Below, piece by piece: positions 12,306 through 12,474 of a DNA stretch of 64,000 bases. Source of the stretch: Escherichia coli (lineage in GTDB: Bacteria > Pseudomonadota > Gammaproteobacteria > Enterobacterales > Enterobacteriaceae); the NCBI RefSeq assembly GCF_003334305.1, contig NZ_QOWS01000014.1; one strand, given 5' to 3'. A program made the translations under genes and the position numbers. A model generated the notes under the pieces. That model was given only the letters and a program-made list of their open reading frames with translations. It made no database searches and was not told the origin of the DNA. Position 1 is the first letter of the stretch. The number at the start of each line of letters is the position of its first letter.

Positions 12306-12461
12306 TTACAAGAACCAGGGGCGGAAATTCCAGCCCTCTCGATTGTTACGTAGCACGGACAGACTATACGCCTGATGGTCGTTCCCCATCGGGCCTGAAA
12401 ACCGCAATACGCTGGGTAACAATCTTCGAGGGTAGCAGTTAACGCTGCTACCCTCTTTTTT
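12306..12461 (+). ncRNA. sroC: SroC small RNA (gltI 3' region / gltI-gltJ spacer); boundaries approximate
   Basis: Position between gltI and gltJ with terminal hairpin gagggtagcag-ttaa-cgctgctaccctc plus T tract at 12428-12461; assignment from knowledge of the locus. Confidence 0.55.
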
Positions 12462-12474
12462 CTGGAGTAGATTT

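What the first reader, a model, noticed from the sequence alone, without database searches (positions are those of the whole stretch)
12306..12474. gltI-gltJ spacer with a strong terminator hairpin: SroC-type 3'-derived sRNA
The 169-bp spacer ends in a perfect GC-rich hairpin plus T tract (12428-12461) just 13 nt before the gltJ start. That matches a partial terminator producing a stable gltI 3'-end RNA, and the known SroC sRNA maps to this position in E. coli and Salmonella. The exact 5' end cannot be set from sequence.
Basis: partly seen in the sequence, partly recalled or inferred. Interest (0 to 1): 0.25.

Follow-up and report, generated by a model that had tools for sequence, protein, structure and literature searches.

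The report
Known SroC small RNA (gltI–gltJ spacer)
This spacer is the already well-studied E. coli small RNA SroC, cut from the end of the gltI messenger, which soaks up and destroys the amino-acid regulator RNA GcvB; the copy here is identical to the reference and therefore ordinary.

Summary
gltI ends at 12305 and gltJ starts at 12475. The 169-nt spacer ends in a 12-bp hairpin (12428-12455) plus T6 (12456-12461), 13 nt before the gltJ ATG.

Rfam's sroC model (RF00369) matches 12301-12463 end to end at 174.8 bits (threshold 45). Those 163 nt are identical to the annotated K-12 sroC gene (b4763). The locus is single-copy in 5422 of 5426 complete E. coli genomes.

Both published GcvB-binding sites are intact and 14 nt apart: BS1 GGACAGAC (12357-12364) and BS2 UCGUUCC (12379-12385). 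The CA-rich GcvB target in the gltI 5' UTR is also present (11321-11356).

Seventy orthologues from about 16 enterobacterial genera show compensatory changes in SL2 and the long-range helix, and a conserved terminator.

Published work shows that SroC is released by leaky intrinsic termination plus RNase E/Hfq processing, and that it triggers GcvB decay.

RNase E processing is needed as well as the terminator.

Verdict: already known, low interest. The only open point is whether the conserved non-GcvB nucleotides tune terminator read-through.

The parts
11321..11356 (+). [quoted passage not shown]
   Evidence: Duplex with K-12 GcvB nt 61-92 is -37.2 kcal/mol against -21.0 +/- 3.0 for 500 shuffles, 0 as good. 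The site is described in PMC4474525.
11397..12305 (+). gltI CDS (periplasmic Glu/Asp-binding protein), the parental mRNA of SroC
   Evidence: ORF (ATG at 11397, checked). RefSeq annotation under the match.
12301..12463 (+). SroC sRNA (163 nt as annotated in K-12; the 5' end may lie at 12298 by Salmonella-equivalent numbering; the 3' end lies within or just after the T tract)
   Evidence: Rfam RF00369, 174.8 bits, model 1-163. 100% identical to K-12 b4763.
12319..12336 (+). Stem-loop 1 (SroC 19-36)
   Evidence: Rfam consensus and MFE fold. 87.6% of cells paired across 71 sequences, 2 pairs with changes on both sides.
12341..12354 (+). 5' arm of the long-range helix (pairs with 12411-12424) that encloses the GcvB-binding module
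   Evidence: MFE fold. 8 of 13 pairs have changes on both sides.
12357..12364 (+). BS1, GGACAGAC, pairs with GcvB nt 156-163
   Evidence: Exact 8-nt complement to K-12 gcvB. The six bases GGACAG were not in my search pattern and are invariant in 71/71 sequences. Validated by compensatory mutation C63G/G160C in PMC4474525.
12370..12394 (+). Stem-loop 2 (SroC 70-94), which presents BS2 in its loop
   Evidence: 97.8% of cells paired, 5 of 9 pairs with changes on both sides.
12379..12385 (+). BS2, UCGUUCC in the SL2 loop, pairs with GcvB nt 13-19
   Evidence: Exact 7-nt complement, 14 nt after BS1 as published. Compensatory mutation C87G/G14C in PMC4474525. Its invariance in my alignment is by construction, because it was part of the search pattern.
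12411..12424 (+). 3' arm of the long-range helix
12428..12455 (+). Intrinsic-terminator hairpin (12 bp, loop UAAC), the shared 3' end of the monocistronic gltI mRNA and of SroC; leaky, so gltJKL is still transcribed
   Evidence: 98.9% paired across orthologues. Described as a leaky Rho-independent terminator in PMC4474525. Transcripts of about 1200 nt and about 2500 nt seen in E. coli.
12456..12461 (+). T tract (T6; T8 in most other genera)
12464..12467 (+). gltJ Shine-Dalgarno GGAG, outside the RNA hairpin
   Evidence: Read directly. The position is conserved.
12475..13215 (+). gltJ CDS (permease), expressed by read-through of the SroC terminator

Best explanation
The spacer encodes SroC, a roughly 163-nt Hfq-associated small RNA that has no promoter of its own.

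Transcription from the single gltIJKL promoter either stops at the leaky intrinsic terminator (12428-12461), giving a monocistronic gltI-sroC RNA, or reads through into gltJKL. 5'-end-dependent RNase E cleavage, guided by Hfq, then cuts at the very end of the gltI reading frame (about 12301). This releases the tightly folded 3' fragment.

SroC acts as a sponge. An internal bulge (BS1, 12357-12364) and the SL2 loop (BS2, 12379-12385) pair with two distant segments of GcvB and trigger RNase E degradation of GcvB. This de-represses the many amino-acid transporter and metabolic mRNAs that GcvB silences. One of them is gltI itself, through the CA-rich site at 11321-11356, so the arrangement forms a feed-forward/positive loop. 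The same terminator also sets a high GltI:GltJKL ratio.

Shown here: identity, position, fold, covariation, presence of both pairing sites and of the 5' UTR site. Taken from the literature: RNase E and Hfq dependence, GcvB decay, physiology, and additional targets (MgrR, fliE/flhBAE).
For: - Rfam sroC match 12301-12463 at 174.8 bits, E = 7e-37, full model.
- 163/163 identity to annotated K-12 sroC b4763 in the same gltI-gltJ position.
- Present once per genome in 5422 of 5426 complete E. coli genomes, at 99% identity or more in 5249.
- Strong terminator and a stable overall fold, z = -6.5.
- BS1 and BS2 are exact complements of GcvB 156-163 and 13-19, 14 nt apart, and every published probed or mutated residue maps with one constant +3 offset.
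- The gltI 5' UTR GcvB site is present.
- 70 distinct orthologues from about 16 genera sit in the same gltI-gltJ context. Across them 89.8% of cells are paired against 36-53% for slid controls, covariation score is 0.221 against 0.114 shuffled (0 of 500), and 17 pairs change on both sides.
- Experiments: biogenesis, RNase E/Hfq dependence and compensatory mutagenesis in PMC4474525. E. coli Northern and TIER-seq with the major RNase E site exactly at the SroC 5' end in PMC11347164. RIL-seq found that 70% of GcvB chimeras in stationary phase are with SroC in PMC5145812.
Against: Nothing contradicts it. Limits:
- No expression data exist for this particular strain.
- gcvB lies outside the window, so pairing was tested against K-12 gcvB.
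- Short-word complementarity between SroC and GcvB is only modestly enriched over shuffles (7-mers P about 0.04, 8-mers P about 0.11). The pairing claim therefore rests on the published mutagenesis, not on sequence statistics.
- BS2 invariance in my alignment is by construction.
- The promoter scan is insensitive. It did not flag the gltI promoter either, so the absence of an internal promoter is literature-based.
Confidence: 0.97

Rival explanations
1. The element is only a cis-acting intercistronic attenuator that sets the GltI:GltJKL ratio, and the 3' fragment is an inert decay by-product.
For: The terminator lies between the binding-protein gene and the permease genes, a common layout in ABC-transporter operons. 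The terminator and T tract are the most conserved part. Short complementarity to GcvB is only weakly above chance.
Against: The 120 nt upstream of the terminator are conserved and covary as a defined fold, which a bare terminator would not need. GGACAG of BS1 is invariant in 71/71 sequences. Published compensatory mutations, GcvB half-life changes and RIL-seq show trans activity. The attenuator role is real but is not the whole function.
Confidence: 0.02
2. In addition to the sponge function, the conserved nucleotides outside BS1/BS2 form a cis-regulatory device that tunes read-through of the terminator. These are CCCUCUCGAUUG at 12334-12345 and CAAUCUUCGAGGGUAG at 12420-12435. One possible mechanism is transient pairing of UCUCG with the terminator's 5' arm, or binding of a factor.
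For: Both blocks are nearly invariant across genera. Rfam's consensus draws UCUCG:CGAGG as a helix that overlaps 4 nt of the terminator stem, and 94.4% of cells can form it. The nascent-transcript MFE predicts this pairing in E. coli and Salmonella. Miyakoshi et al. raise the possibility explicitly.
Against: There is no covariation at all in that helix, and the one variable position (U39) breaks the pair in 17 sequences. At equilibrium the terminator wins with P of at least 0.99. The nascent-fold prediction does not hold in Klebsiella or Enterobacter. The conservation could equally reflect Hfq or RNase E contacts, or other targets such as MgrR and fliE.
Confidence: 0.1
3. The spacer is a repetitive extragenic element (REP/BIME-like) of the kind often found after binding-protein genes.
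For: It is an intercistronic palindromic sequence in an ABC operon. SL2 begins GCCUGAUG, a faint resemblance to REP that I recalled from memory and did not test.
Against: It is single-copy: median 1 place per genome, 5433 places in 5422 genomes. It is a syntenic orthologue in 16 genera. It matches a specific sRNA covariance model.
Confidence: 0.005
4. The spacer encodes a small protein, either on the + strand or as the 75-aa antisense ORF at 12306-12533.
For: A mechanical 75-aa GTG ORF exists on the - strand.
Against: There is no + strand ORF of 20 aa or more in the spacer. Orthologues differ by indels of 1, 2, 6, 7 and 9 nt that would destroy any frame. The substitution pattern is pair-compensating, as expected for RNA.
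Confidence: 0.005

Closest known systems
SroC of E. coli K-12 (b4763) and Salmonella (Rfam RF00369)
   Same: The sequence is identical to K-12 over all 163 nt, in the same gltI-gltJ position. It has the same fold, the same terminator and the same BS1/BS2 GcvB-pairing sites.
   Different: Nothing in the RNA itself. The context differs from K-12. This strain keeps the native DNA upstream of gltI plus a rhomboid-protease gene, where K-12 has IS5D 104 nt upstream of the gltI ATG. Compared with Salmonella and most other genera, the Escherichia terminator stem is longer (12 bp against 7-9 bp) and the T tract shorter (T6 against T8).
Other RNase E-processed 3'-UTR-derived sRNAs (CpxQ, SdhX, NarS, GlnZ, OppZ, MalH)
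   Same: They share the host mRNA's terminator, have no promoter of their own, have a 5'-monophosphate end made by RNase E, and bind Hfq (PMC9438474).
   Different: SroC comes from an internal, leaky terminator between cistrons rather than from the operon's end. Its main target is another sRNA (sponge activity), not an mRNA.
Other sRNA sponges (chbBC spacer/ChiX, 3'ETS-leuZ, AgvB)
   Same: An RNA by-product of another transcript base-pairs with and inactivates a trans-acting sRNA.
   Different: SroC induces RNase E-dependent decay of GcvB through two short, additive sites and is not itself co-degraded. The ChiX trap works through PNPase after remodelling of the terminator.

Membership tests
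SroC sRNA (Rfam RF00369) | Scores above the curated gathering threshold of the covariance model over its full length | tested here: met
   174.8 bits against GA 45, model positions 1-163 of 163, E = 7.4e-37.
SroC sRNA (Rfam RF00369) | Lies on the sense strand between the gltI stop and the gltJ start | tested here: met
   gltI 11397-12305, gltJ 12475-13215, followed by gltK, gltL and rihA. The same context holds in the orthologues.
SroC sRNA (Rfam RF00369) | Sequence matches the experimentally defined E. coli gene | tested here: met
   163/163 identity with NC_000913.3 686681-686843 (-) sroC b4763.
SroC sRNA (Rfam RF00369) | 3' end formed by a Rho-independent terminator shared with the monocistronic gltI mRNA | tested here: met
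   12-bp hairpin plus T6, conserved in 71/71 sequences. The leakiness itself is taken from the literature.
SroC sRNA (Rfam RF00369) | Two GcvB-complementary sites (BS1 in an internal bulge, BS2 in the SL2 loop), 14 nt apart | tested here: met
   GGACAGAC pairs with GcvB 156-163 and UCGUUCC with GcvB 13-19, with 14 nt between them. This was tested against K-12 gcvB, because the strain's own gcvB is outside the window.
SroC sRNA (Rfam RF00369) | Conserved secondary structure (SL1, long-range helix, SL2) | tested here: met
   89.8% of cells paired, 17 pairs with changes on both sides, covariation 0.221 against 0.114 in shuffles and 0.05-0.065 in slid controls.
SroC sRNA (Rfam RF00369) | 5' end generated by RNase E processing (5'-monophosphate), with no promoter of its own | not testable with these tools
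   No sigma-70-like site was found on the + strand in 10900-15000, but the scan is insensitive. Shown experimentally in Salmonella and E. coli.
SroC sRNA (Rfam RF00369) | Hfq association and Hfq-dependent destabilisation of GcvB | not testable with these tools
   Literature only: PMC4474525 and RIL-seq PMC5145812.
REP/BIME repetitive extragenic palindromes | Many dispersed copies per genome | tested here: not met
   Median 1 place per genome, maximum 2.
Riboswitch / cis-regulatory attenuator | Mutually exclusive terminator and antiterminator helices supported by covariation, or a match to a known cis-regulatory family | tested here: inconclusive
   Rfam gives no cis-regulatory family hit at this locus. 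The alternative UCUCG:CGAGG helix can form in 94% of cells but shows no change on both sides in any pair. It is disfavoured at equilibrium.

The most novel reading that the evidence does not exclude
The near-invariant blocks outside the GcvB sites are not just scaffold. These are CCCUCUCGAUUG upstream and CAAUCUUCGAGGGUAG at the foot of the terminator. They could form a co-transcriptional switch, or a factor-binding site, that sets how often RNA polymerase stops at 12461. That would set both the GltI:GltJKL ratio and the cellular dose of the GcvB sponge in response to some signal. The longer Escherichia/Kluyvera terminator stem would then be a lineage-specific retuning of the switch.
Probability: 0.1. 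Interest if true: 0.4.

Novelty: already known. Interest (0 to 1): 0.05.

Why it matters
SroC is a textbook example of an mRNA-derived sponge that links one amino-acid transporter operon to the whole GcvB regulon. Finding it here only confirms that the first-stage reader can recognise a 3'-derived sRNA from raw sequence, and it adds no new biology. The small residual interest is whether termination at the gltI-gltJ terminator is regulated. The original authors left that question open.

Tried and rejected
1. Full-length RNAduplex of SroC against GcvB forces an all-intermolecular structure and is meaningless. I replaced it with an exact-complement search and local duplexes.
2. Shuffle statistics for complementarity gave only P about 0.04 (7-mers) and about 0.11 (8-mers). 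Two other 7-8-mers match GcvB inside stems (SroC 101-108 and 146-152) and are probably chance. Sequence statistics alone therefore do not establish the pairing.
3. The Rfam-style UCUCG:CGAGG helix as an antiterminator shows no covariation and is negligible at equilibrium. I kept it only as a low-probability speculation.
4. The original mapping paper (Vogel 2003) is not held in the library. The 5' end therefore rests on the K-12 annotation, on PMC11347164 and on the +3 offset from Salmonella numbering.
5. Of the 81 pattern hits in genome contigs, L008 is a chance hit in GC-rich coding DNA. Five loci lacked flanks, and four carry insertions and were analysed separately.
I pasted in the gcvB sequence instead.
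7. A hand-indexing error of 1 nt for the Rfam pairs, and another for the gltI ATG, were corrected programmatically.

Full report
**Observation**

The window reads gltI (ATG 11397, stop TAA 12303-12305), then a 169-nt spacer (12306-12474), then gltJ (ATG 12475), followed by gltK, gltL and rihA.

The terminator scan finds a 12-pair stem at 12428-12455 with 7 G-C pairs and loop UAAC, followed by TTTTTT at 12456-12461. It is much the longest stem of the 12 terminator-like hits in 10900-15000. On its own it folds at -22.7 kcal/mol (z = -5.9; 0 of 200 shuffles as stable). The loop-closing pair is a G.U wobble, so "perfect" is only slightly generous. Thirteen nucleotides (CTGGAGTAGATTT, including the gltJ GGAG) separate the T tract from the gltJ start.

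**Identity**

- A gathering-threshold Rfam scan of the whole window gives a full-length sroC (RF00369) match at 12301-12463 on the + strand: 174.8 bits against a threshold of 45, E = 7e-37.
- The K-12 reference annotates ncRNA sroC (b4763) at 686681-686843, between gltI and gltJ and overlapping the last 5 nt of gltI.
- The window is identical to K-12 at every one of the 163 positions and through to the gltJ start. The only difference in the 191-nt alignment is a synonymous-looking change at 12293, inside gltI.
- A 271-nt query spanning the spacer is found in 5422 of 5426 complete E. coli genomes, once per genome (median 1), at 99% identity or more in 5249. Most RefSeq/PGAP records list only gltI and gltJ under the match. 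The sRNA is often left unannotated even though it is always present.

**Anatomy and conservation**

The 163-nt RNA folds at -66.3 kcal/mol (z = -6.5) into four elements:
- SL1 (12319-12336);
- a long-range helix (12341-12354 with 12411-12424);
- SL2 (12370-12394), enclosed with an internal bulge inside that helix;
- the terminator.

To test the fold independently of Rfam's seed, I scanned the species-representative genome collection with a 19-base core pattern. It returned 81 loci. After removing five without flanks, one chance hit (L008), one duplicate and four insertion variants, 70 distinct orthologues remained. They come from about 16 genera: Escherichia, Salmonella, Citrobacter, Klebsiella, Raoultella, Enterobacter, Kluyvera, Kosakonia, Lelliottia, Leclercia, Trabulsiella, Mangrovibacter, Phytobacter, Pluralibacter, Huaxiibacter and others. 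Nearly all have a T-run and then the gltJ start MSIDWNW at the expected distance.

On the E. coli MFE structure:
- 89.8% of cells form standard pairs, against 36-53% when partners are slid by 1-3 columns.
- The covariation score is 0.221 against 0.114 for shuffles (0 of 500 reach it).
- 17 pairs show changes on both sides: 5 of 9 in SL2 and 8 of 13 in the long-range helix.
- The terminator is 98.9% paired and almost invariant.

Caveat: columns covered by my search pattern (ACTATA, TGGTCGTTCCCCA) are invariant by construction. The stems, and GGACAG of BS1, are not.

**Function-defining sites**

Miyakoshi et al. (PMC4474525) showed that SroC pairs with GcvB at two sites of 7-8 nt, 14 nt apart. 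They validated this by compensatory mutations SroC C63G/C87G with GcvB G160C/G14C.

I searched the window's SroC against K-12 gcvB for exact complements:
- GGACAGAC (SroC 57-64, window 12357-12364) pairs with GcvB 156-163.
- UCGUUCC (SroC 79-85, window 12379-12385) pairs with GcvB 13-19.
- Exactly 14 nt lie between the two sites.

All published residues (C63, C87, G61, G65, G84) map onto the right bases with one constant offset of +3. This means the Salmonella authors place the 5' end 3 nt upstream of the K-12 annotation, which corresponds to window 12298 against 12301.

Complementarity of this length is only modestly above chance (7-mers P about 0.04, 8-mers P about 0.11). The pairing claim therefore rests on the published genetics, not on my statistics.

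The second arm of the circuit is also in the window. The CA-rich gltI 5' UTR (11321-11356) pairs with the GcvB R1 seed at -37.2 kcal/mol, against -21 +/- 3 for shuffles.

**Mechanism (literature, with what was shown where)**

- The single gltIJKL promoter gives both full-length mRNA and a monocistronic gltI RNA that ends at a leaky Rho-independent terminator.
- RNase E is required to release SroC. In vitro, correct cleavage needs a 5'-monophosphate substrate and Hfq.
- SroC reduces GcvB half-life from over 15 min to 1.7 min in an Hfq- and RNase E-dependent way and is not co-degraded.
- In E. coli, Northern blots show gltI-sroC at about 1200 nt and a read-through species at about 2500 nt. TIER-seq places the most prominent RNase E site exactly at the SroC 5' end, and GcvB itself promotes SroC production (PMC11347164).
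- RIL-seq found that 70% of GcvB's Hfq-bound interactions in stationary phase are with SroC (PMC5145812).
- Additional reported targets are MgrR and fliE/flhBAE (PMC9438474).

**Rivals**

- *Repeat element.* Excluded by single-copy status.
- *Coding potential.* Excluded. There is no + strand ORF of 20 aa or more, the orthologues carry frame-breaking indels, and the substitutions are pair-compensating.
- *Attenuator only.* A pure stoichiometry-setting attenuator is part of the truth, but it cannot explain the conserved, covarying 120 nt upstream or the published trans effects.
- *Regulated terminator.* The one open idea is that the near-invariant blocks outside BS1/BS2 regulate termination, as the original authors speculated. 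These blocks are CCCUCUCGAUUG and CAAUCUUCGAGGGUAG. Rfam's consensus pairs UCUCG (SroC 37-41) with CGAGG (127-131), overlapping four bases of the terminator stem. The helix can form in 94% of cells but shows no covariation, and its one variable position breaks the pair in 17 sequences. At equilibrium the terminator wins with P of at least 0.99. The alternative appears only in predicted nascent folds of E. coli and Salmonella, not Klebsiella or Enterobacter. I rate this at about 0.1.

**Verdict**

This is a correct call of a known gene. The RNA is identical to the reference, so the novelty is "already known" and interest is low.

Refinements for the record:
- The RNA spans about 12301 to 12461-12463.
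- The last 11-13 nt of the spacer are the gltJ ribosome-binding region.
- Biogenesis needs RNase E and Hfq as well as the terminator.
- The Escherichia/Kluyvera terminator stem is longer than in other genera.

Noticed in passing
window 9065-10942 (-): An intact 625-aa ORF lies between lnt and gltI, annotated in RefSeq as 'rhomboid family intramembrane serine protease'. It is present in 3238 of 5426 complete E. coli genomes at 90-100% identity, which makes it unusually variable for a chromosomal gene. It is a pseudogene with an internal stop in strain E2865, and K-12 annotates no such gene between lnt and gltI.
   Followed up: partly
window ~11293 (104 nt upstream of the gltI ATG at 11397): This is where K-12 carries IS5D. 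Identity between K-12 and the window stops at this point, and the window keeps the native upstream DNA. K-12's gltI-sroC promoter context therefore differs from this strain's, which could affect SroC dosage.
   Followed up: partly
L016:6753-7060, L055:7708-7950, L080:1141-1445, L081 (- strand, match at rc 8381): In four species representatives sroC carries a 60-150 nt insertion between SL2 and the terminator. In L016, L080 and L081 the insertion has an ERIC/IRU-like core (GTGAATCCCC...GGGGTGA); that resemblance is recognised from memory. BS1, BS2, the terminator and the gltJ start are retained, so these species would make a longer SroC. L080 is labelled Chryseobacterium but looks enterobacterial, so the label is doubtful.
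   Followed up: partly
window 12428-12461 compared with alignment A2 columns 146-177: Escherichia and Kluyvera (13 of 71 sequences) have an extended terminator stem, 12 bp in E. coli with T6. Other genera have a 7-9 bp GGGUAGC/GCUACCC stem with T8. The loop-proximal extension differs in sequence between Escherichia and Kluyvera but still pairs.
   Followed up: partly
window 1417-1900 (+): The tRNA cluster has five genes (Met-CAU, Leu-UAG, Gln-UUG, Met-CAU, Gln-CUG). The K-12 metT-leuW-glnU-glnW-metU-glnV-glnX cluster has seven. This strain has one Gln-UUG and one Gln-CUG copy fewer.
   Followed up: yes
window 41598-42040 (-): The Rfam cspA-thermoregulator model matches at 124.5 bits (GA 78). 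From the K-12 gene order recalled from memory, this is likely the cspE mRNA rather than cspA itself. The model includes coding sequence, so a paralogue hit is expected.
   Followed up: no
window 60274-60367 (-) and 55027-55135 (+): There is a marginal Rfam hit to the enterobacterial sRNA STnc70 (44.1 bits against GA 40; 94 nt matched to a 149-position model). There is also a clear rnk leader hit (124.9 bits).
   Followed up: no
E. coli RefSeq records under hits H1-H12: PGAP-annotated E. coli genomes list only gltI and gltJ under this locus. sroC is annotated in the curated K-12 record but not in the twelve listed records of that search, even though the sequence is present in 5422 of 5426 genomes.
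   Followed up: yes
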